DNA of 64,000 nucleotides from a virus (taxonomy: Duplodnaviria; Caudoviricetes), in the IMG/VR virus record IMGVR_UViG_2706796350_000001, positions 19,325 to 83,324 of that record. The stretch is one strand, 5' to 3'. This document shows, piece by piece, positions 8,940 through 22,069 of this stretch; the stretch's first letter is position 1, and each line of letters starts with the position of its first letter. Under the pieces are notes generated by a model. The model did not search any database and was not told where the DNA came from. It saw nothing but the letters and a program-made list of their open reading frames with translations. A program made the position numbers and the translations under genes.

Positions 8940-9737
8940 ATGCCGTCTGTACAGATCATCGTCCCCAAGTACGACTCCAAGTCGGGGCGTCCCAAGATGA
9001 TTCTCATGGGATCGAACGGCGATATGTTCTCGGTCCCGTGGGCACCACGTTCGGTCCAGCACTCGAACCTCGGAGAAGAGGTAGTCGAAGTCGAGCGCGC
9101 CGGTCGGTATCCCGAACTCATGGTGAAGAATCCGCAACTTCACAAAATGTCCTTCGGCCTCACCCTTGGCAAGGACATCAACGTATCGATCGAGCCTGAG
9201 CTGAAGCGCCTGGAAGCCATCATCAAGGCCGGTGGATGGATTCAGATTCTCTACGGTCAGCGGGAAACCGGTTTGTGGAAAAACGTAGGGTTCTCGTACG
9301 AGTCTGTGGAACGCGAGCCGATCCAGAACCAGATCAGCCGTGCCACGGTCTCGCTGGACTTCACCGAGGTACCTGATGCGCGAGTGACAGTTGCCAAGTT
9401 CTCAAACGACTTCAACTTCCGAGATGATGCGGTGACTGCGTCCATCTCTCAGTCCCTCGTCGAACTCGCCAAGACCACCAGAGCCATTTCTACGGGGTCG
9501 AACACCAATACGGGCACAAGTACTAGCGGGCCTGCCAATAGCGGCACAGGGGGCAACACAGGGGCCGGAGGAAGCACCACCACGACGCCGCCACACATCG
9601 TTCAGTCGGGGGAGACCCTGTTGTCGATCGCGCAGAAGTACTACGGCCAGTACGGCGAGCAGTTCTGGCGGCTCATCGGTGACTACAACAAGGTCATCGG
9701 TTCACTCAACATCGGGCAGATTCTGAGAATCCCGTGA
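8940..9737 (+). CDS. LysM-domain baseplate / tube-initiator protein
   Basis: C-terminal LysM (HIVQSGETLLSIAQKYYG...NKV...LNIGQILRIP) after tape measure, as in contractile tail modules. Confidence 0.8.
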   Translation: MPSVQIIVPKYDSKSGRPKMILMGSNGDMFSVPWAPRSVQHSNLGEEVVEVERAGRYPELMVKNPQLHKMSFGLTLGKDINVSIEPELKRLEAIIKAGGWIQILYGQRETGLWKNVGFSYESVEREPIQNQISRATVSLDFTEVPDARVTVAKFSNDFNFRDDAVTASISQSLVELAKTTRAISTGSNTNTGTSTSGPANSGTGGNTGAGGSTTTTPPHIVQSGETLLSIAQKYYGQYGEQFWRLIGDYNKVIGSLNIGQILRIP

Positions 9738-10192
9738 GCTATTCTACTATGGTACTTATGTCTAAGACTCGCGGTAAGCAAATTAAGCCAACCAAGTTGC
9801 AAGCAGTCATACAAGCCGGATTGCCAAAAGACGAATGCTGGCTCTACCCTGGTGCACTCGACAAAGATGGCTATGCCTACGCATATGACCAGACGACAGG
9901 CAAGAGCGGACGCGGTGCACGAATTGCCTATCGACTCACATTTGGTGATGTGCCAGACGACATGGTGGTAGATCACGTGTCGGCTCGAAATTGTGTAAGC
10001 CGAGCTTGCGTAAACCCCTACCATCTTGAAGCTGTATCACAGGCCACGAATGTCCAGCGATCAAAGAGTTCAACGAAACGATCCTGCAAGCATGGGCATG
10101 TGTACACCAAAGCAAACACCTATTACACCAAAGAGGGATGGCGGCAGTGTCGCGTTTGTCAACGACGACGTAGTAAGCGTAGGGAGCCGTAA
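9734..10192 (+). mobile_element. Free-standing HNH endonuclease in the tail module
   Basis: DHV....CV..ACVNP.HLEAVS...N (HNH) plus C-terminal CKHGH...NTY...GWRQCRVC; visibly more AT-rich codons than neighbours. Confidence 0.9.
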
Positions 10193-10193
10193 C

Positions 10194-11555
10194 ATGGTCG
10201 GCTTTAGCCCGTTCTTCAACGAGTTGGTGATCGAGGGCGGTAAGCCGCTGGGTGCAACTACCGCTCAGATGTTGCTGTCTGCCAGCTACTCGTTTGGCAT
10301 CGACAGTAACTCCGACATGACCTTCGAGATGCTTGACCCGAACTACGCCTACCTCACGTCGTTCTCTGGCGATCGTGGACCTATCGGCAAAGGGGCCAAG
10401 TATGACAACATCTCGTACACGGTCAGCGGGTTCAGTGCTACCGGAGGACCGGCAGGCAACGGTGCAGTCACATACAAACTGCAACCTCTTGCGATTGAGA
10501 AGCTGCGTAAGATCACCGGACCACTGAATCGCAAGAACATCAGCGCCTCCCAGTACGTCATCGACGCGGCCAAGCGACAGAAACTCAACGTCGTCGCGCA
10601 ACCGTCGTCCAAGAAACCGTCGATCGAGCGCGATACGAAAGACGGCCTCGGTAGCGGCGACGAGCGCAACGAATGGACCACCATCCTCGGTTTGGCCGGG
10701 GAAGAAGGCTATATCGCGTACGAGTGCCTGAACACCCTGTACTTCGCGTCCCCTAAGTGGCTCTTCGAGAACCGCCCGAACGTGAACGTCTATTGGGCCG
10801 GTGCACTCAACACGATTGGTAGTTCGCGCAAGCATGCAATGCTCAAAGCACCTGACGTTGGGTTCGGTAGCCAGAACACCGAAGACGAGATCGGCTTCAG
10901 TCTTCCGATCGAAGCGGCGGGAAGTATCCTCCCAGGCCACACGATCACCGTTCATGGTGTACCAAAGATCGCCAAGAAGCTCTTGGTTACAGAAGTCACG
11001 TATCCCGTTGCAGGGCAGGGAGACTTCACGGTCAAAGCCAAAATGCCATGGACGGTCGAGAAGTCCGAGCGTCGGAAGCCACAACCACCTATGGACATCG
11101 GCACGATCGGTGGAGGTGGACGCGGCGGTGTCGGTATGGGCGGTAGCGGTAAGGGAAAGAGGTTCTACGCTACTGAGATTTGCAATGCCGCAAAGGAACG
11201 CAACCTCGGTCGCGATGGTGCGCGTAACGGGATCGCTACGGCACTTGTCGAGACCAACCTAACGATGTATGCCAACTACGCAGTTCCCGAATCTCTGAAG
11301 TACCCGCACGACGCGGTTGGTAGTGACCACGACTCCGTGGGACTGTTCCAGCAGCGACAGGCCGGTTGGGGAACACTCGCTCAGCGCATGAATCCACGTG
11401 CCTCGGCTGGTCTGTTCTTCAACAAGATGATGACGTTCAACTGGCGAGCAATGGACCCTGGTGCCGCGTGCCAGCGAGTCCAGGTGTCCGCCTACCCCGG
11501 TCGGTATTCGCAGCGCATGGGCGAGGCGAATCAGTGGGTCGCACAGGTTTACTGA
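10194..11555 (+). CDS. Baseplate hub protein 1 with C-terminal lysozyme-like / transglycosylase domain
   Basis: Start reassigned to ATG 10194 (SD AGGGAG). gp27/gpD-like hub region; Gly linker; IATALVET...HDSVGLFQQR..GWG...RM.P..SA..FF hydrolase-type motif. Confidence 0.75.
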   Translation: MVGFSPFFNELVIEGGKPLGATTAQMLLSASYSFGIDSNSDMTFEMLDPNYAYLTSFSGDRGPIGKGAKYDNISYTVSGFSATGGPAGNGAVTYKLQPLAIEKLRKITGPLNRKNISASQYVIDAAKRQKLNVVAQPSSKKPSIERDTKDGLGSGDERNEWTTILGLAGEEGYIAYECLNTLYFASPKWLFENRPNVNVYWAGALNTIGSSRKHAMLKAPDVGFGSQNTEDEIGFSLPIEAAGSILPGHTITVHGVPKIAKKLLVTEVTYPVAGQGDFTVKAKMPWTVEKSERRKPQPPMDIGTIGGGGRGGVGMGGSGKGKRFYATEICNAAKERNLGRDGARNGIATALVETNLTMYANYAVPESLKYPHDAVGSDHDSVGLFQQRQAGWGTLAQRMNPRASAGLFFNKMMTFNWRAMDPGAACQRVQVSAYPGRYSQRMGEANQWVAQVY

Positions 11556-16429: not shown

Positions 16430-18412
16430 ATGACTGAAACACGCACCCCACGGATGCGACTCCCGCAGTGGTCGTCGGGTACTACCGATTCGCCGTCGCG
16501 GGAAGACTTCAACGAGGCGTTCTTCAACCTGGAAAAGTGGGCAGGCCGTTTCGAGTATGGCCCGCTCGATGATCGCCCGTCGCCGGAAGTCGAGGGGCGG
16601 TACTACGTTGACACTGATGGTGTGATCTACCGCGACACCGGCACTCAGTGGGCACAGGTCGGGTTCCCCAAGAACGCGGTGAAGATCACCAAGACCGAGG
16701 GCAACGATCCGGCATTGTGGATCGACCTCCCCGCAGGCACGACCGCCGATGCGATCCGAACGACTCACGACAACAAGAATCGTTTCCGCGTACAGGCAAA
16801 CGGTGATGTCGTGGCGTCGTCCACTCGGCTGTACCAGTCGGATGCAGCGGCCCCCGCGAACAACCTCCCTCACACGGTCGGCGTCACGTCGAAGTCGGCC
16901 AATGCGTCGGGAGTGACGGTCTACGGTGCGATGGCGCAGTCCGGCAACCTCATCGAGACGAAGACCTCGACAAGCGCGGACCTAACGCAGATCACGGCCA
17001 GCGGTGATGTGAACACCCTCGGTCGTCTGATGGCCGGTTCGCTCACCCCGCAGGACGCTCAGCTCTACATTCAGAACTCGGGCACCACACGCCCCGCACT
17101 GTTGGCGCGAACCAACACCACTCTGCCGAATGCGAACACGGCAGTCGCAGTCGAGAACCAGTCCGGTGCTACTCAGCTTCTGAAGTTGGATAACAGCGGT
17201 CGACTTGCCGTTGGTAATCGAGACAACAAGGCGATCAATGCAGCGGACAACGTTGCGGTCAACTCGAACTACACCGCGACCAACTCGGGCACCAGTTCGC
17301 TGATTCAGGCACAGCTCGTCTTCCGCAACACGGCAAGCGGGTTCGGTGTCGGCGGTCTCGTGGTCCGCCAGCAGCCCGGTGATACGTCGGCGGGATCGAG
17401 TCTTGGTGTCGTGGCCGGTACGGCGGGTGCCGATGGTCTGGCCCCCGAGCGTGTTCGTTTCGGTGTGAACGACGCCAAGCACGGCGCACGGTTCGTCGCC
17501 AACGAGCCTGATTGGGCACCTGTCGTCGTTCGTGGTGCGGTGAGTCAGGCCGCAGACCTTCTCCTGGCCCAGGACAGCGACGAGAACAAGGTGGCCGGTA
17601 TCAACTACCGGGGTGACGGTGTTCTTCGCTCTCTGGCGACTACAGGCACCGGTTTGAACGCCTTCAGTGGACCGATCACGTCGGCGGGAGAGATTCAGGG
17701 CACGAACCTGCGAGTTATCCAGGGATCGGGCAACAACGCGGGGGTTCTCTCCCAGATCAAAACGACGGCCACCACCGGACAGCACTTTCTCGCTCAGGAC
17801 GAGAACGGTGCGGCGAAAGCACGTCTGAACCGAGACGGAACTCTCGAAATCGGTATGGACACCAACGCAGTTGCCGCCGGTGCCGTCCTCTTGACGATGC
17901 GCGGCCAGCAGTACCGCCAGAACGGGCGCAAGTTGCAGAGTTACGACCAGGCAGCACAGCGGTGGTCGACGTTCGAGTCTGCGTTCGCCGCCGAGTACTA
18001 CACGCAGACTTCGCAGAGCGTGAAGAACGCATGGGTGGCGATCAACTGGTTCGGTGAGACCAACGACACCGAGAACGCATTCGGATTCACCAGCGGGAGT
18101 TCCAAGATCACGGTGCCGTTCACCGGTTGGTACGACGTGCGTGCTCTGGCCCACTGCTCGATGAACTTCACAGGAGCCGGTTCTGCCACTTTCCGAATCA
18201 ACAACAACCTCGAACTGAAGTACCGCCGTGACTACGCGAAAGCAGTCGGCTTCGATGTCGTCACTCTCTCGCTGAACGACCTGGTTTACCTGAATGCCAA
18301 TGACACATTGGAGTTCATGATCCAGATCGACTCGTTCTTCTTCACGGCCAATACCCTGAACTCGGGGGACTACCGATCGCGCTGTGCGATTCGCTTTGCC
18401 GGATACGCCTGA
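16430..18412 (+). CDS. Tail fibre / receptor-binding protein with C1q/TNF-like C-terminal head
   Basis: T.TPRMRLPQW N-terminal anchor, repeated beta modules, C-terminal KITVPFTGWYDV...LVYLNANDTLEF. Confidence 0.75.
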   Translation: MTETRTPRMRLPQWSSGTTDSPSREDFNEAFFNLEKWAGRFEYGPLDDRPSPEVEGRYYVDTDGVIYRDTGTQWAQVGFPKNAVKITKTEGNDPALWIDLPAGTTADAIRTTHDNKNRFRVQANGDVVASSTRLYQSDAAAPANNLPHTVGVTSKSANASGVTVYGAMAQSGNLIETKTSTSADLTQITASGDVNTLGRLMAGSLTPQDAQLYIQNSGTTRPALLARTNTTLPNANTAVAVENQSGATQLLKLDNSGRLAVGNRDNKAINAADNVAVNSNYTATNSGTSSLIQAQLVFRNTASGFGVGGLVVRQQPGDTSAGSSLGVVAGTAGADGLAPERVRFGVNDAKHGARFVANEPDWAPVVVRGAVSQAADLLLAQDSDENKVAGINYRGDGVLRSLATTGTGLNAFSGPITSAGEIQGTNLRVIQGSGNNAGVLSQIKTTATTGQHFLAQDENGAAKARLNRDGTLEIGMDTNAVAAGAVLLTMRGQQYRQNGRKLQSYDQAAQRWSTFESAFAAEYYTQTSQSVKNAWVAINWFGETNDTENAFGFTSGSSKITVPFTGWYDVRALAHCSMNFTGAGSATFRINNNLELKYRRDYAKAVGFDVVTLSLNDLVYLNANDTLEFMIQIDSFFFTANTLNSGDYRSRCAIRFAGYA

Positions 18413-18444
18413 TGAGCTGGAACATCAAACAGGAAAGAGAAGAA

Positions 18445-18813
18445 ATGGACATCGTGGATAACCGATCGATTAGCAAAGACTCCACCCTCATCGACAGCGA
18501 AGTCGTCGATGGTGCAGACGTGAAGGAGTGGGGGCCGGAAGACGGCAACGAGACCCCGAACCCCGAACCGTCGCTGAGCTTCGGCACCAAGGCGGTCTTG
18601 TCTGGTGAAGAGACGCGGCAGATCATCCTCGACCGGATCAAGGAGCACGAGTCGACGATCGCCGCTGAAGAGTGCTTGCTGTTCGAGTGCCAGCACGGGC
18701 AGTCGGAGTCGGCCAAAGAGGAACTGACGGCCCGAATCGCAGCACGATACGACCTCGTGCAGGCGTACGTGAACGAGTACAACCGTATTTACGGAGGTTC
18801 TGAAAATGGCTGA
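18445..18813 (+). CDS. Hypothetical protein after tail fibre (possible fibre chaperone)
   Basis: SD AGGAAAG before ATG 18445; alternative start 18412 overlaps the fibre stop. Confidence 0.6.
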   Translation: MDIVDNRSISKDSTLIDSEVVDGADVKEWGPEDGNETPNPEPSLSFGTKAVLSGEETRQIILDRIKEHESTIAAEECLLFECQHGQSESAKEELTARIAARYDLVQAYVNEYNRIYGGSENG

Positions 18814-21800
18814 TCGCGTAGGTATCGACTTCTCCGCCAACGAGATCGATCCTGCCGCCATCAAGGCAGCGGGAGTCGAAGCCGTCATCAACTACATCTC
18901 GGAAGCGCGCCCGTCTGCTCCGTGGATGAAGGCTGTGAAGCCGATGAAGGCGGAGTACGCAAAGCGACTTCGAGACGCGGGCATTCAGATCGTCTCGAAT
19001 TACCAGTACGGGAAAACCGGGGATGCCACTCCGTCTGACTGGCGTGGTGGATACGAAGCGGGGAAGCGCCACGGTGCAATCGCCCTCTCGAACCACTGGA
19101 AGGCCGGGGGCACTCCGTGGCGTCCCTGCTACGCGCCATGTGACGACAACCCGACGATGGATGAGGTGACGAAGTACGTCCTGCCGTTCATCAAGGGCTG
19201 GGCAGAGGTCTGGGGCAAGGAATACACCGGCATCTACTGCAACGCTCAGACATGGGATTGGCTGAAGTCTCTCGGTGCCCCCGTTACCTGGTTCTGGCAA
19301 CACAACTGGGATGGCAAGGCCGAGCACCCCCACCACCCCGACGCCCACATGCACCAAGTTCGGATCGACAAAGACCGAGTGGGCGGAACCGGCGTCGACT
19401 GGAACATTCTCTTGAAGGCTGACTATGGACAATGGTCGCTTTCCAAGAACCCCAATCCAATCGAGAAGTTCCCGATCGTCGACATGATTAAGACATCGGG
19501 AGTCGGATACAACGCTGGCAACAGTGGCCGTCTTCGCGTTTACCTGCACTCGTCGGAGGGCAAGGATTGGGTGTCGACTGCCCGAGGCACGATGCAGTAT
19601 CAGGCGACCAGTCAGACTGGCTCGTATCACTACCTGATCGACGACAATGAGATCATCCAGACCATCGCGCTGAACAACAGCGCGTGGGCGGTTCTCTCGG
19701 ACAACGACGTGTCGATCAACATCTGCCTCGTCCTGTCGTCCGGCGCAACTGGATACGGCATCACAGCACGCGAGAACCAGCCGAAATCGCGAGCACAGTG
19801 GCTGGAACACGAGAAGATGTTGAAGATGCTCCGGTTCCTGATCGATCACGTGTGTAGGGAAACGGGAATCCCCAAGACTCGTGTTGACATCAAGGGTGTC
19901 GGCCAAAACAAGCGCGGGGTCTCGTCGCACAACAACTACACCTACGGCTCGGTGGTACTGAAGGGGTTCAAGGACGGTACGCATTGGGATATTCCCGATA
20001 CGTTCCCGTACTCGTACGTCCTGGAAGGTTCCGTGGAGCCGACGAAGCCGATCGATCCCAACGCTTGGCCGTTGCCGGTCGGTTACTACTACGGCCCTCT
20101 CGACGGTCCAGAGCAGTCGATCAGCGGCCAGTTCTCGGGCGACCTACCGGAGTGGAAAGACGGTCTCGGTCGCTGGCAGACCAAGGTCGGCATCACCGCC
20201 TCGAAGAAGTGGGACGCGCAGACCGCAGATGCAGTTGCCAAGCTCCAAAAGGCGAAGGGTTGGTTCACTGACTCGAACAAGATGAAGGGCCTGCTCGCCA
20301 AGGGGGAGTGGGATTCCGTCATCACGGGTGGTTGGAAGATCACCGACGCCAAGCCTGAGGCTCCTGATCCGACGAAGCCGTTCGTGCCCACTCCGAAGCC
20401 GACTGGTCGATTCATGCCGCTGGTCGAGGGCACGTACAAGATCGGGTCGGGATATGGCCCGCGAGATGGTGGCTTCCATCGTGGCCTGGACTTCGAGGCC
20501 AAGGACGGGACGCCGTTTTATGCCATGCAGGCCGGAACCGTGCTCTACATCGGCCCCGCAGACGGTTACGGGCAGTGGATCGTGGTCGACTCTGACAACG
20601 CGCAGGGTGCCGGGTGTGTCGAGTACGGGCACATGTGGAACGCGTTTGCCACAGGACTAAAGATTGGGTCTCGTGTCCAGGCAGGGCAGTTGCTGGGATA
20701 CGTCGGTTCCAACGGTGAGTCGACCGGCCCTCACTTGCATGTCGCGGTTCATCCGTACGAGTACAACCCAAAGGTCTACGTCAATCCCGCAGACTGGTTG
20801 AGGAACGCCAAGAAACACGTCGCGCCATCCGGTAGCGACGACAACAAGGAGGTACCCCCTGTGACGAATCCTGAACAGCCAGCATCGGAGCGCGCCGTCA
20901 AGGTGTCCGATCTGACCGGCGATGGACTCTCCGACCGTTTCGGAATGCGAGCAACCGATCTCGGTGCAATGATCGAAGCGCCGAACGGCAAGCTCGTCGC
21001 CGTCTTCGGAGATACCTGGAAGGATCGAGTGGGCGGCATCGATTGGCGCGCACCCGTCATCCTCATCGGCAGCAAGGGCGCGAACGGCGTCATTCAGTGG
21101 GAGCGTGCCGGTGGCAGCGACCCCAACTACGCACGGCAGTTGTGGGCCTACACCCACGACTCTCCGCCGTGGACCAAGGGCGGTATCTCGACCGTTCTCC
21201 CATCCGATCTTTTGCGAATCGGCAACACCCTCTACCTGCACGTGATGGTTAACAAGGGTTTCCCGACTGTCGCGTGGACCGAGATTTGGAAGTCCGAAGA
21301 CAGCGGTATCTCGTGGACCCACCTCGGTGAGAACAGCAAGCTCTCCGGCACAGCAGGCAACGGTCTGTTGCAGTGCCTCTCGTGGGACTACAACGCGGAC
21401 GACGACTATGTGTACGCGGTCTCGACCGGATTCCAGCGTGACAAGGGTATTGTTCTCCGTCGCTTCCGCCCGACGCAGATCAACAACCAGTCTCTCTGGC
21501 AGGTATGGAACTACAACGGCACATGGGGGTGGCGCACTAACGTCAACCCCTCGGTGATCACCCCATCCGGCGAGAAGTGGGGAGAGCTGACTCTTCGCAA
21601 GTTGGCAAACGGTTGGGTTCTCGGCGGACTCTCGATGCACAGCCTCGGGCTGTCCTACCGAGTGCTCTCGTCCCCGACCGCGAATCTGTACACGACACCG
21701 GCAAAGCGACTCATCTGGGGTTGCGAATGGCCGGAAGAGGATCACACGGTCGGCAAGGTCGCGCAGACCTACGGCGGCTACATCGTCCCCGGCTCGAAGT

Positions 21801-22069
21801 TGGGTGTCGATGGCGGCGTCGACATCGTGGTCTCGCAGTGGAACACCACAGTGGGATGGCCCTACAAGGTCATGCAGTTCCGTGGCACCCTCCCCGCCGT
21901 ATGGCCGGACGTGGTTCGCCCCGACGCCTCTGCTGTTCTGGACGCGGCAGACAATCTCACGACGGCGATGGACACCTACAAGGGCGGCGTTGCAGCGACC
22001 GGCCCAGAGGCCCGCCAGATCGCCGTTGTGAACGCAGAACTCGACAAGCTGGAAGGAATCATCCGATGA
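18806..22069 (+). CDS. lysA: Multidomain endolysin: DUF1906 (GH25-like) + amidase_2 + PG-binding + M23 peptidase + DUF4185/GH183 D-arabinanase-like
   Basis: DFSA/QIVSNYQ (DUF1906); LHSSEG...SHNNY (amidase); WPLP.GYYYGP..G (PG-binding); HRGLD...HLH (M23); TDLG....NG.L..VFGDT, YGGYI.P, VSQW (DUF4185). Confidence 0.88.
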   Translation: MADRVGIDFSANEIDPAAIKAAGVEAVINYISEARPSAPWMKAVKPMKAEYAKRLRDAGIQIVSNYQYGKTGDATPSDWRGGYEAGKRHGAIALSNHWKAGGTPWRPCYAPCDDNPTMDEVTKYVLPFIKGWAEVWGKEYTGIYCNAQTWDWLKSLGAPVTWFWQHNWDGKAEHPHHPDAHMHQVRIDKDRVGGTGVDWNILLKADYGQWSLSKNPNPIEKFPIVDMIKTSGVGYNAGNSGRLRVYLHSSEGKDWVSTARGTMQYQATSQTGSYHYLIDDNEIIQTIALNNSAWAVLSDNDVSINICLVLSSGATGYGITARENQPKSRAQWLEHEKMLKMLRFLIDHVCRETGIPKTRVDIKGVGQNKRGVSSHNNYTYGSVVLKGFKDGTHWDIPDTFPYSYVLEGSVEPTKPIDPNAWPLPVGYYYGPLDGPEQSISGQFSGDLPEWKDGLGRWQTKVGITASKKWDAQTADAVAKLQKAKGWFTDSNKMKGLLAKGEWDSVITGGWKITDAKPEAPDPTKPFVPTPKPTGRFMPLVEGTYKIGSGYGPRDGGFHRGLDFEAKDGTPFYAMQAGTVLYIGPADGYGQWIVVDSDNAQGAGCVEYGHMWNAFATGLKIGSRVQAGQLLGYVGSNGESTGPHLHVAVHPYEYNPKVYVNPADWLRNAKKHVAPSGSDDNKEVPPVTNPEQPASERAVKVSDLTGDGLSDRFGMRATDLGAMIEAPNGKLVAVFGDTWKDRVGGIDWRAPVILIGSKGANGVIQWERAGGSDPNYARQLWAYTHDSPPWTKGGISTVLPSDLLRIGNTLYLHVMVNKGFPTVAWTEIWKSEDSGISWTHLGENSKLSGTAGNGLLQCLSWDYNADDDYVYAVSTGFQRDKGIVLRRFRPTQINNQSLWQVWNYNGTWGWRTNVNPSVITPSGEKWGELTLRKLANGWVLGGLSMHSLGLSYRVLSSPTANLYTTPAKRLIWGCEWPEEDHTVGKVAQTYGGYIVPGSKLGVDGGVDIVVSQWNTTVGWPYKVMQFRGTLPAVWPDVVRPDASAVLDAADNLTTAMDTYKGGVAATGPEARQIAVVNAELDKLEGIIR
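20846..20863 (+). promoter_or_regulatory. Internal in-frame translation start within lysin (SD AAGGAGGT + GTG)
   Basis: AAGGAGGT 20846-20853, 7-nt spacer, in-frame GTG 20861 in the linker between M23 and DUF4185. Confidence 0.65.

What the first reader, a model, noticed from the sequence alone, without database searches (positions are those of the whole stretch)
18806..22069. All-in-one 1087-aa lysin: muramidase + amidase + M23 peptidase + D-arabinanase-like domain
Seen: motifs of DUF1906 (about 18806-19440), amidase_2 (about 19530-20010), a PG-binding module, M23 (HRGLD/HLH, about 20430-20800) and DUF4185 (about 20890-21890). Established: DUF4185 proteins are GH183 endo-D-arabinanases acting on mycobacterial-type arabinogalactan and LAM. 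Inference: one polypeptide attacks three peptidoglycan bond types and also severs the arabinan that anchors the mycomembrane. GH183 in actinophage lysins may already be reported, so novelty needs checking; the construct is attractive as an anti-mycobacterial enzyme.
Basis: partly seen in the sequence, partly recalled or inferred. Interest (0 to 1): 0.72.

Follow-up and report, generated by a model that had tools for sequence, protein, structure and literature searches.

The report
Giant phage lysin with arabinan cutter
This is a real, very large phage cell-wall-destroying enzyme that joins three peptidoglycan-attacking modules to one that cuts the arabinan of mycolic-acid bacteria, but the design, and the arabinan-cutting activity of a phage version of the last module, are already published.

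Summary
Window 18806-22069 (+) is one intact 1087-aa ORF. Pfam finds four domains over threshold at the stated places: Rv2525c-like/DUF1906, Amidase_2, M23 and DUF4185. A peptidoglycan-binding-like three-helix module sits between amidase and M23.

The C-terminal domain is GH183 on three counts:
- HMM E-value 7e-58.
- Both catalytic Asp residues invariant in 19 of 19 relatives.
- Predicted propeller fold closest to AraH2 and EndoMA1.

The gene has no hydrophobic segment and overlaps a holin-like gene by ATGA. It is a holin-dependent lysin A of a Gordonia-type myophage.

It is not new:
- The same four-motif lysin was described for Gordonia phage GMA6 in 2015 (PMC4524720).
- It was described again for three other Gordonia phages in 2022 (PMC9671378).
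- The GMA6 DUF4185 domain was shown to be an endo-D-arabinanase in 2023 (PMC10115798).

A full-length PHROG family and 15 annotated phage records also exist. The "muramidase" label is unproven.

One lead remains. Of 14 GH183-bearing phage records, 6 lack a LysB-family gene, though this phage has one.

The parts
18793..18797 (+). Shine-Dalgarno-like GGAGG, 8 nt before the start codon
   Evidence: Read directly from the sequence
18806..22069 (+). Lysin A gene, 1087 codons plus stop (protein P0001)
   Evidence: ORF list and translation. Full-length match to phrog_28089 'endolysin', 2266.7 bits. No hydrophobic 19-mer above KD 1.6, maximum 1.26
18824..19438 (+). N-terminal Rv2525c-like (DUF1906, GH25-like) glycoside-hydrolase-like domain, aa 7-211
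   Evidence: Pfam PF08924 E 7.9e-34. Matches PDB 4pmq Rv2525c at E 3.7e-49 over aa 7-211. D8, D113 and D188 conserved in 17 of 17 relatives that have the domain
19535..20011 (+). Amidase_2 (N-acetylmuramoyl-L-alanine amidase) domain, aa 244-402
   Evidence: Pfam PF01510 E 3e-8, or 1.6e-9 on the piece alone. H248 and H375 conserved in 18 of 19, and Y274, D390 and H393 in 19 of 19 aligned proteins
20048..20344 (+). Conserved three-helix module, peptidoglycan-binding-like, aa 415-513
   Evidence: Conserved in 19 of 19 relatives. Model pLDDT 71.7. VIA-align top 12 rows are PG-binding-type domains, Z 5.3-7.6. Pfam PG_binding_1 only E 0.37. Foldseek found nothing at E <= 0.001
20405..20839 (+). M23 zinc endopeptidase domain, aa 534-678
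   Evidence: Pfam PF01551 E 1.8e-21. PDB 9gy1 E 7e-23. H558, D562, H643 and H645 kept in all 10 proteins with this domain aligned at this place
20903..21895 (+). GH183 (DUF4185) endo-D-arabinanase domain, aa 700-1030; catalytic Asp pair D718 and D736
   Evidence: Pfam PF13810 E 7.3e-58. D718 and D736 invariant in 19 of 19. Model pLDDT 86. Foldseek top hits 8an0 AraH2 (E 8.5e-18) and 8ic1/8hhv EndoMA1 (E about 1e-17)
21896..22066 (+). C-terminal 57-aa extension, two predicted helices, function unknown
   Evidence: Helices at piece residues 353-374 and 381-398, pLDDT 54-64. Absent from the DQ-type relatives. An extension of like length occurs in P0007 and P0011-P0014 at only 12-27% identity
22066..22575 (+). 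Holin-like membrane protein gene (169 aa); its ATG overlaps the lysin stop as ATGA
   Evidence: phrog_3428 'holin' E 1.4e-27. Sequence and translation. Hydrophobic segment at aa 82-106
18412..18813 (+). Upstream 133-aa ORF of unknown function, overlaps the lysin start by 8 nt
   Evidence: ORF list. No PHROG hit. A gene of like size sits at the same place in Schomber and ChisanaKitsune

Best explanation
The gene encodes the lysin A (endolysin) of a Gordonia-type contractile-tailed phage. The protein is made in the cytoplasm without an export signal. It reaches the wall when the holin-like protein encoded by the overlapping next gene opens the membrane.

It then takes the mycolyl-arabinogalactan-peptidoglycan wall apart at several levels:
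- The Amidase_2 domain cuts the peptide stem from MurNAc.
- The M23 domain cuts within the peptide cross-links.
- The Rv2525c-like domain probably cuts the glycan strand.
- The middle three-helix module probably holds the enzyme on peptidoglycan.
- The C-terminal GH183 propeller cuts the alpha-1,5 D-arabinan backbone with retention, using D718 and D736. This severs the tether between peptidoglycan and the mycolic-acid outer membrane.

Shown here: the ORF, the domain identities, the intact catalytic motifs, the fold and the gene context. Shown by others on a phage homologue: endo-D-arabinanase activity of the DUF4185 domain. Inferred: the order of events, the activity of each peptidoglycan domain, the binding role of the middle module, and any role of the helical tail.
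For: - ORF and domains over Pfam cut-offs.
- Full-length endolysin PHROG.
- Fifteen phage records hold a homologue covering 95% of the protein, all annotated lysin A or endolysin.
- Gene order is the same as in Schomber and ChisanaKitsune: baseplate and tail genes, lysin A, membrane proteins, then primase and helicase on the other strand.
- ATGA overlap with a phrog_3428 holin-like gene.
- No hydrophobic segment in the lysin.
- GH183: D718 and D736 invariant in 19 of 19, spaced 18 residues like D170 and D188 of DgGH4185b, whose Ala mutants are inactive (PMC10115798, passages).
- Model pLDDT 86, with AraH2 and EndoMA1 as best structural matches.
- The DUF4185 domain of Gordonia phage GMA6 cleaved mycobacterial arabinogalactan in an endo fashion (PMC10115798, passages).
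- All 31 phage records with this domain are from Gordonia, Rhodococcus or Mycobacterium phages, whose hosts have arabinogalactan.
- M23 and Amidase_2 metal-site residues are conserved.
Against: - No experiment was run on this protein here.
- The N-terminal family has no established activity (PMC10480492).
- The Amidase_2 hit is modest (34.5 bits), the Pfam match stops before the last expected ligand, and PDB amidases match only at E 0.02 or weaker.
- The gene lies directly after tail and baseplate genes, so a virion-borne role is not excluded by position alone.
- The phage also carries a LysB-family esterase gene (G000:C1:13599-14291, outside the window), so the arabinanase is not the only way to free the outer membrane.
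- The authors of PMC10115798 found the multidomain proteins poorly soluble and assayed only truncated domains, so the activity of the full-length protein is untested.
Confidence: 0.85

Rival explanations
1. The protein is carried in the virion, at the tail tip or baseplate, and acts from outside during infection. It would drill through arabinogalactan and peptidoglycan for DNA entry rather than cause lysis at the end of the cycle.
For: The gene follows the baseplate J, minor tail and 660-aa tail-region genes directly. In Stormageddon, Finch and Clawz the homologue also follows a virion or tail gene. An arabinan cutter would help entry, an idea raised in general terms in PMC10115798 (introduction passage).
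Against: - An ATGA overlap couples it to a holin-like gene.
- All 15 full-length homologues are annotated lysin A or endolysin.
- The tail module already has its own wall-hydrolase-like genes at 8940-9737 and 10026-11555.
- The one mass-spectrometry row I saw for GMA6 names orf20 only, and the paper's text adds orf43, not the lysin. I did not read that table in full.
Confidence: 0.06
2. The GH183 propeller serves mainly as a cell-wall-targeting module. It would bind arabinan to position the peptidoglycan hydrolases, taking the C-terminal place where lysin A proteins usually carry a wall-binding domain. Catalysis would be of little importance.
For: It occupies the C-terminal position typical of wall-binding domains. 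[quoted passage not shown]
Against: - Both catalytic Asp residues and many active-site columns are invariant in 19 of 19.
- The phage domain is catalytically active in vitro (PMC10115798).
- A separate binding-like module already exists at aa 415-513.
Confidence: 0.05
3. The long gene gives more than one product, by internal starts or by cleavage at the proline-rich linkers. The working enzymes would then be smaller single- or two-domain proteins, as in phages that encode the same modules as separate genes.
For: - Split versions exist: Tonitrus encodes amidase, peptidase and GH183 hydrolase as three adjacent genes, and Myrna and Phabba encode lysin A and the GH183 protein as two.
- Proline-rich linkers flank the M23 domain.
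- Multidomain proteins were poorly soluble when expressed whole (PMC10115798).
- Two products from one mycobacteriophage lysA gene are known for Ms6; this is recalled and was not checked here.
Against: Nothing in the sequence shows an internal ribosome site or a protease site, and I did not look for them systematically. The fused form is conserved in 10 protein clusters.
Confidence: 0.08

Closest known systems
Orf45 lysin of Gordonia phage GMA6 (Dyson et al. 2015, PMC4524720) and its DUF4185 domain 'PhageGH4185' (Al-Jourani et al. 2023, PMC10115798)
   Same: Same four motifs in the same order: cd06418 BacA-like, pfam01510, pfam01551, pfam13810. Listed size 1088, equal to 1087 codons plus stop (sections 19-20 read, S1 table row seen). 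The DUF4185 domain was expressed alone and cleaved arabinogalactan as an endo-D-arabinanase (passages).
   Different: No sequence of that protein was available to the tools, so I made no residue-by-residue comparison. I cite the window's record by its handle only and make no statement on its origin. The 2015 paper left pfam13810 as 'unknown function'. The 2023 paper never uses the words lysin or endolysin (0 occurrences).
Lysin A of Gordonia phages ChisanaKitsune gp56, DalanDe gp55 and Clawz gp65 (Pham 5603; Pollenz et al. 2022, PMC9671378), and the other annotated records (Schomber, Stormageddon, Chidiebere and others)
   Same: About 1,060-1,100 aa with the same domain order. ChisanaKitsune gp56 gives the same four Pfam families. 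Identity to P0001 is 57-60% over 95% of its length. The gene neighbourhood is the same.
   Different: - That paper called the C-terminal domain 'GH43' from an HHpred hit to 4HBS. Here 4hbs ranks fourth, below the GH183 structures.
- P0001 is a mosaic relative to these: 75-87% identical in the front half and 46-59% in the back half.
- P0001 carries a 57-aa helical tail that the DQ-type proteins lack.
- The Clawz type lacks the M23 domain.
GH183 endo-D-arabinofuranases: AraH2/Rv3707c (PDB 8an0), EndoMA1 (8hhv, 8ic1) and EatA (9mz5)
   Same: Pfam DUF4185, five-bladed propeller, two catalytic Asp residues about 18 apart. Sequence E-values are 3e-21 to 4e-17 and Foldseek E-values 8.5e-18 to 1e-16.
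   Different: Those are secreted bacterial enzymes for housekeeping, nutrition or a type VII toxin. Here the domain has no signal peptide and is fused to three peptidoglycan hydrolase modules in a phage lysis cassette. Identity is only 20-22% in the structural alignments.
Split forms: Mycobacterium phages Myrna gp243/gp244 and Phabba; Rhodococcus phage Tonitrus gp50-52
   Same: The same modules sit next to one another in the lysis region. The GH183 part is 31-33% identical to that of P0001.
   Different: The modules are encoded as separate genes. These three phages have no LysB-family gene.
Lysin B (mycolylarabinogalactan esterase; D29 gp12; phrog_102)
   Same: Same presumed task: freeing the mycolic-acid outer membrane from the wall at lysis.
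   Different: It is a serine esterase that cuts the mycolate-arabinan ester, not a glycosidase. It is unrelated in sequence. The window's phage has its own LysB-family gene elsewhere in the genome.
Rv2525c of M. tuberculosis (PDB 4pmq)
   Same: The N-terminal domain aligns over aa 7-211 at E 3.7e-49.
   Different: [quoted passage not shown]

Membership tests
GH183 / DUF4185 endo-D-arabinanase | Match to Pfam PF13810 above the gathering score | tested here: met
   196.6 bits against 39.5, profile positions 8-309 of 309
GH183 / DUF4185 endo-D-arabinanase | Two catalytic aspartates (D170/D188 of DgGH4185b, D39/D56 of Rv3707c) | tested here: met
   D718 in TDLG and D736 in FGDT, 18 apart, invariant in 19 of 19. 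They align with the ADLG and FGDS motifs of 9mz5 and 8an0. The mutant data come from PMC10115798
GH183 / DUF4185 endo-D-arabinanase | Five-bladed beta-propeller fold like solved GH183 enzymes | tested here: met
   Model pLDDT 86, pTM 0.82. Best Foldseek hits are 8an0 (E 8.5e-18, TM 0.80 on the target), 8ic1 and 8hhv
GH183 / DUF4185 endo-D-arabinanase | Endo cleavage of D-arabinan in arabinogalactan or LAM | not testable with these tools
   Shown in vitro for the DUF4185 domain of Gordonia phage GMA6 (PMC10115798), not for this protein here
Peptidase M23 | Pfam PF01551 above cut-off, with the HxxxD and HxH zinc and catalytic motifs | tested here: met
   76.6 bits against 28.7. H558, D562, H643 and H645 present and kept in the 10 proteins with the domain at this place
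Amidase_2 (N-acetylmuramoyl-L-alanine amidase) | Pfam PF01510 above cut-off | tested here: met
   34.5 bits against 26; 38.6 bits on the piece alone
Amidase_2 (N-acetylmuramoyl-L-alanine amidase) | Complete zinc site (His, His, Cys or Asp) and catalytic Tyr | tested here: inconclusive
   H248, Y274, H375, D390 and H393 are conserved in 18-19 of 19. The Pfam match ends at profile position 116-119 of 131, and PDB amidases align only over aa 38-86 of the piece at E 0.02 or weaker. The residue roles are assigned from recall of T7 lysozyme
Rv2525c-like glycoside-hydrolase-like domain (PF08924, former DUF1906) | Pfam match above cut-off and similarity to the solved Rv2525c | tested here: met
   117.9 bits against 27.2; 4pmq E 3.7e-49
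GH25 muramidase | Match to Pfam Glyco_hydro_25 (PF01183) | tested here: not met
   PF01183 is not among the hits at E <= 1
GH25 muramidase | Demonstrated muramidase activity of the Rv2525c-like family | not testable with these tools
   Rv2525c activity 'has not been established' (PMC10480492). D8, D113 and D188 are conserved in 17 of 17, but the D-x-E acid of GH25 (recalled) has no clear counterpart
PG_binding_1 peptidoglycan-binding domain | Pfam PF01471 above cut-off | tested here: not met
   E 0.37, 11.5 bits against 23, only 23 residues matched
PG_binding_1 peptidoglycan-binding domain | Three-helix fold like solved PG-binding domains | tested here: inconclusive
   Model pLDDT 71.7. Foldseek best E is 0.55. 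The VIA-align top 12 of 48,161 chains all carry PG-binding-type domains (by entry title or, for some, by recall): Z 5.3-7.6, best 6tci at Z 7.6, rmsd 2.0, 66 aligned. That is below the tool's caution level of 8
Holin-dependent phage endolysin (lysin A) | Sits in a lysis cassette next to a holin-type membrane protein and has no export signal of its own | tested here: met
   ATGA overlap with a phrog_3428 holin-like gene. Maximum 19-residue hydropathy is 1.26, with no segment at or above 1.6. Homologues in Clawz, Stormageddon and Finch are followed by genes annotated holin

The most novel reading that the evidence does not exclude
In phages of mycolic-acid bacteria the GH183 arabinanase may be a second, interchangeable way to free the outer mycomembrane at lysis, standing in for lysin B.

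I examined 14 GH183-bearing records: the window's genome plus 13 of the 23 distinct phages found. Six of them, representing 4 of 7 lineages, have no LysB-family (phrog_102) gene: Clawz, Stormageddon, RedWattleHog, Myrna, Phabba and Tonitrus.

Two of these are the published unexplained exceptions:
- Myrna is the only LysB-less mycobacteriophage without a GH19 lysin.
- Clawz is the only 1 of 16 Gordonia reference phages without lysB.

The window's phage keeps both enzymes, so it would cut the mycolyl-arabinan tether at both ends. I did not find this link stated in the searches.
Probability: 0.35. Interest if true: 0.5.

Novelty: already known. Interest (0 to 1): 0.15.

Why it matters
The finding itself adds nothing new. 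The four-module lysin and the arabinanase activity of a phage GH183 domain are in print, and the gene is routinely annotated lysin A.

Three smaller points come out of the check:
- The 2022 description mislabels the C-terminal domain as GH43, and the 2023 enzymology paper never mentions lysis. The two literatures have not been joined in the papers I could search.
- GH183 may explain why some Mycobacteriales phages do without lysin B. This is testable with standard phage genetics in laboratory strains.
- The domain-by-domain mosaic shows that the arabinanase is a portable lysis module, found fused or as a separate gene across Gordonia, Rhodococcus and Mycobacterium phages.

Tried and rejected
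- **LysB via Pfam.** Searching the phage's own genome with Cutinase (PF01083) and PE-PPE (PF08237) found nothing. PF01083 also missed the annotated lysin B of ChisanaKitsune, so these blanks say nothing. I replaced them with phrog_102. D29 gp12 matches it at E 1.2e-76, and it finds the annotated gene in ChisanaKitsune.
- **LysB via D29 gp12.** Used as a single query, D29 LysB found nothing in five records, the positive control included. Uninformative.
- **LysB replacement in this phage.** The idea that the arabinanase replaces LysB here is rejected. A 230-aa LysB-family ORF with a GYSLG motif lies at G000:C1:13599-14291.
- **Widening the sample in IMG/VR.** The nine-sequence alignment was too diverse to search with. 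A five-sequence alignment returned only two loci. Dropped.
- **Foldseek on the aa 403-534 module.** No match at E <= 0.001. The VIA-align wide search gave the PG-binding lead.
- **Papers.** 'GMA6' and 'PhageGH4185' do not occur in the five held supplementary files of PMC10115798, so I could not see the construct's boundaries. The Rv2525c structure paper is not held.
- **Virion association.** The held mass-spectrometry table of PMC4524720 shows one row labelled GMA6, for orf20. I did not read the table in full, so this is inconclusive.
- **Earlier notes of this scan.** None for this genome.
- **BNR_6.** The Pfam hit at E 0.45 is only the Asp-box of a propeller blade and is below threshold.

Full report
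**1. The observation**

Window 18806-22069 on the + strand is a single open frame of 1087 codons. A GGAGG box lies 8 nt before the ATG.
- Rv2525c_GlyHyd-like (the former DUF1906): aa 18-200, E 7.9e-34.
- Amidase_2: aa 247-372, E 3e-8.
- Peptidase_M23: aa 557-650, E 1.8e-21.
- DUF4185: aa 710-1026, E 7.3e-58.

The HRGLD and HLH motifs are at aa 558-562 and 643-645.

- Pfam PG_binding_1 reaches only E 0.37, 11.5 bits against a cut-off of 23.
- Foldseek on a model of aa 403-534 (pLDDT 71.7) gave nothing at E <= 0.001.
- The stretch aa 415-513 is nevertheless conserved in all 19 aligned relatives.
- The VIA-align search over 48,161 chains put twelve peptidoglycan-binding-type three-helix domains on top, at Z 5.3-7.6. 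The best was the SleB N-terminal domain: Z 7.6, rmsd 2.0 A, 66 aligned.
- That is below the tool's caution level of 8, so I call it PG-binding-like, not a member.

**2. What the C-terminal domain is**

Three independent lines say GH183.
- The HMM score is 196.6 bits.
- The sequence matches the solved GH183 enzymes EatA (9mz5, E 3e-21) and AraH2 (8an0, E 4e-17). An AlphaFold2 model of aa 689-1087 (pLDDT 86, pTM 0.82) has AraH2 and EndoMA1 (8ic1, 8hhv) as its three best Foldseek matches, at E 8.5e-18 to 1.1e-16.
- The two aspartates that Al-Jourani et al. showed to be essential (D170 and D188 of DgGH4185b, equal to D39 and D56 of Rv3707c; PMC10115798, passages) correspond to D718 and D736. They are 18 residues apart in TDLG and FGDT, and both are invariant in 19 of 19 relatives.

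**3. The other domains**

- *M23.* It keeps H558, D562, H643 and H645, and aligns with a solved M23 peptidase at E 7e-23.
- *Amidase_2.* It keeps H248, Y274, H375, D390 and H393 in 18-19 of 19 sequences. The Pfam match stops short of the last ligand and PDB amidases match only weakly, so the zinc site is inferred.
- *N-terminal domain.* It matches Rv2525c at E 3.7e-49. It is not a Pfam GH25 member (no hit at E <= 1). A 2023 paper says the activity of Rv2525c 'has not been established' (PMC10480492, passage). 'Muramidase' is therefore a hypothesis.

**4. Context and mechanism**

The window lies in an 83,324-base virus record (G000, estimated complete). Upstream are a tape measure, baseplate wedge and J-like genes, and two large tail-region genes. 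The lysin stop overlaps, as ATGA, the start of a 169-aa holin-like gene (phrog_3428, E 1.4e-27). Further on, primase and helicase lie on the other strand. Gordonia phages Schomber and ChisanaKitsune have the same order.

The lysin has no hydrophobic stretch: maximum 19-residue hydropathy is 1.26. So it is a cytoplasmic, holin-dependent endolysin.

The most likely mechanism follows. After the holin acts, the amidase and M23 modules cut the peptide part of peptidoglycan. The Rv2525c-like module perhaps cuts the glycan. The middle module holds the enzyme on the wall. The GH183 propeller cuts the D-arabinan that ties the mycolate outer membrane to peptidoglycan.

Domain identities and context are shown here. 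The arabinanase activity is shown by others on a phage homologue. The rest is inferred.

**5. What is already known**

- Dyson et al. [quoted passage not shown] They list cd06418, pfam01510, pfam01551 and pfam13810, and a size of 1088. That is the same motif order and the same length in codons as the ORF here. I make no statement on the origin of the window's record.
- Pollenz et al. 2022 (PMC9671378, passages) describe the roughly 1,100-aa four-domain LysA of ChisanaKitsune, DalanDe and Clawz. They call the last domain GH43.
- Al-Jourani et al. 2023 (PMC10115798, passages) expressed the DUF4185 domain of GMA6 and showed endo-D-arabinanase activity on arabinogalactan. They founded GH183 on this family, and they note the poor solubility of the multidomain proteins.
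- PHROGs v4 has a full-length family (phrog_28089).
- In the phage collection, 15 records cover at least 80% of the protein at 57-60% identity, all annotated lysin A or endolysin. The GH183 domain alone is found in 31 records, all from Gordonia (20), Rhodococcus (6) or Mycobacterium (5) phages.
- In the large protein database, 10 clusters including this one have all four Pfam domains, and 9 more combine DUF4185 with other lysin modules.

The finding is therefore already known.

**6. What I found beyond the finding**

*Mosaic.* The protein's front half is 75-87% identical to the DQ-type lysins and its back half 46-59%.

*C-terminal extension.* A 57-aa two-helix extension is missing from those lysins. 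A counterpart of like length occurs in P0007 and in the Clawz/Soos type, at only 12-27% identity.

*Lysin B.* I asked whether the arabinanase replaces lysin B. In this phage it does not. A 230-aa LysB-family ORF with a GYSLG motif lies at G000:C1:13599-14291. I then scored other records with phrog_102. That profile is validated by D29 gp12 (E 1.2e-76) and finds the annotated ChisanaKitsune gene. I examined 14 GH183-bearing records: G000 plus 13 of the 23 distinct phages.
- Eight have a LysB-family gene: G000, Schomber, ChisanaKitsune, DalanDe, ScarletRaider, Finch, Trina and NiceHouse.
- Six do not: Clawz, Stormageddon, RedWattleHog, Myrna, Phabba and Tonitrus.
- By lineage, 4 of 7 lack it.

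For comparison:
- Payne and Hatfull name 10 LysB-less phages in a study of 224 lysins (PMC3314691, passage).
- Catalao and Pimentel note that all LysB-less phages except Myrna have a GH19 lysin (PMC6116114, passage).
- Pollenz et al. find lysB in 15 of 16 Gordonia reference phages, the exception being Clawz.

Both exceptions carry GH183. The sample is small, related phages are not independent, and other esterase families could have been missed. This is a lead, not a result. I did not find it stated in the searches. These cover only the held library, and the supplements of PMC10115798 held no mention of the phage construct.

**7. Verdict**

Novelty: already known. Interest: low (0.15). The only reading with some novelty is the possible interchangeability of GH183 and lysin B across Mycobacteriales phages, at probability about 0.35.

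Noticed in passing
window 18806-22069, by domain: Divergence from the closest full-length relatives is uneven. The GH25-like and Amidase_2 parts are 75-87% identical to P0002-P0006 and P0008-P0010. The PG-binding-like, M23 and GH183 parts are only 46-59% identical. The GH183 part is closest to the Clawz/Soos type (P0011, 63%) and to P0007 (62%). This looks like intragenic mosaicism. At the DNA level only the first 1324 nt match other phages by megablast, at 77%.
   Followed up: partly
window 21896-22066: A 57-aa C-terminal extension with two predicted helices (pLDDT 54-64) is absent from the DQ-type lysins. An extension of similar length occurs in P0007 and in the Clawz/Soos-type lysins, with a similar ending (L-E/D-x-x-I-R/Q). 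Its function is unknown. PMC9671378 notes that the Clawz holin-like protein lacks the coiled-coil end seen in ChisanaKitsune, which may or may not be connected.
   Followed up: partly
G000:C1:13599-14291 (outside the window, locus L004:1492-2184): A 230-aa LysB-family esterase gene with a GYSLG motif lies about 24 kb upstream of lysin A. It sits between a minor-tail-like gene and head genes, as in ChisanaKitsune.
   Followed up: yes
window 8940-9737 and 10026-11555: Two tail-module genes carry wall-hydrolase-like ends: phrog_380 'endolysin' at aa 197-265, and an aa 373-509 domain shared with tape-measure and endolysin families. These are probably entry enzymes, separate from lysin A.
   Followed up: no
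phage records (loci L005-L010, L014-L018): The GH183 module occurs in three forms. It is fused in Clawz, Stormageddon, Finch and the DQ type. It is a separate gene after lysin A in Myrna, Phabba and Tonitrus. It stands alone outside any lysis cassette, next to thymidylate synthase genes, in Trina and NiceHouse.
   Followed up: partly
PMC9671378: The 2022 paper labels the C-terminal domain of these lysins GH43 on the strength of PDB 4HBS. In the fold search 4hbs ranks fourth (E 1.4e-11), behind three GH183 structures released in 2023. The label is outdated.
   Followed up: yes
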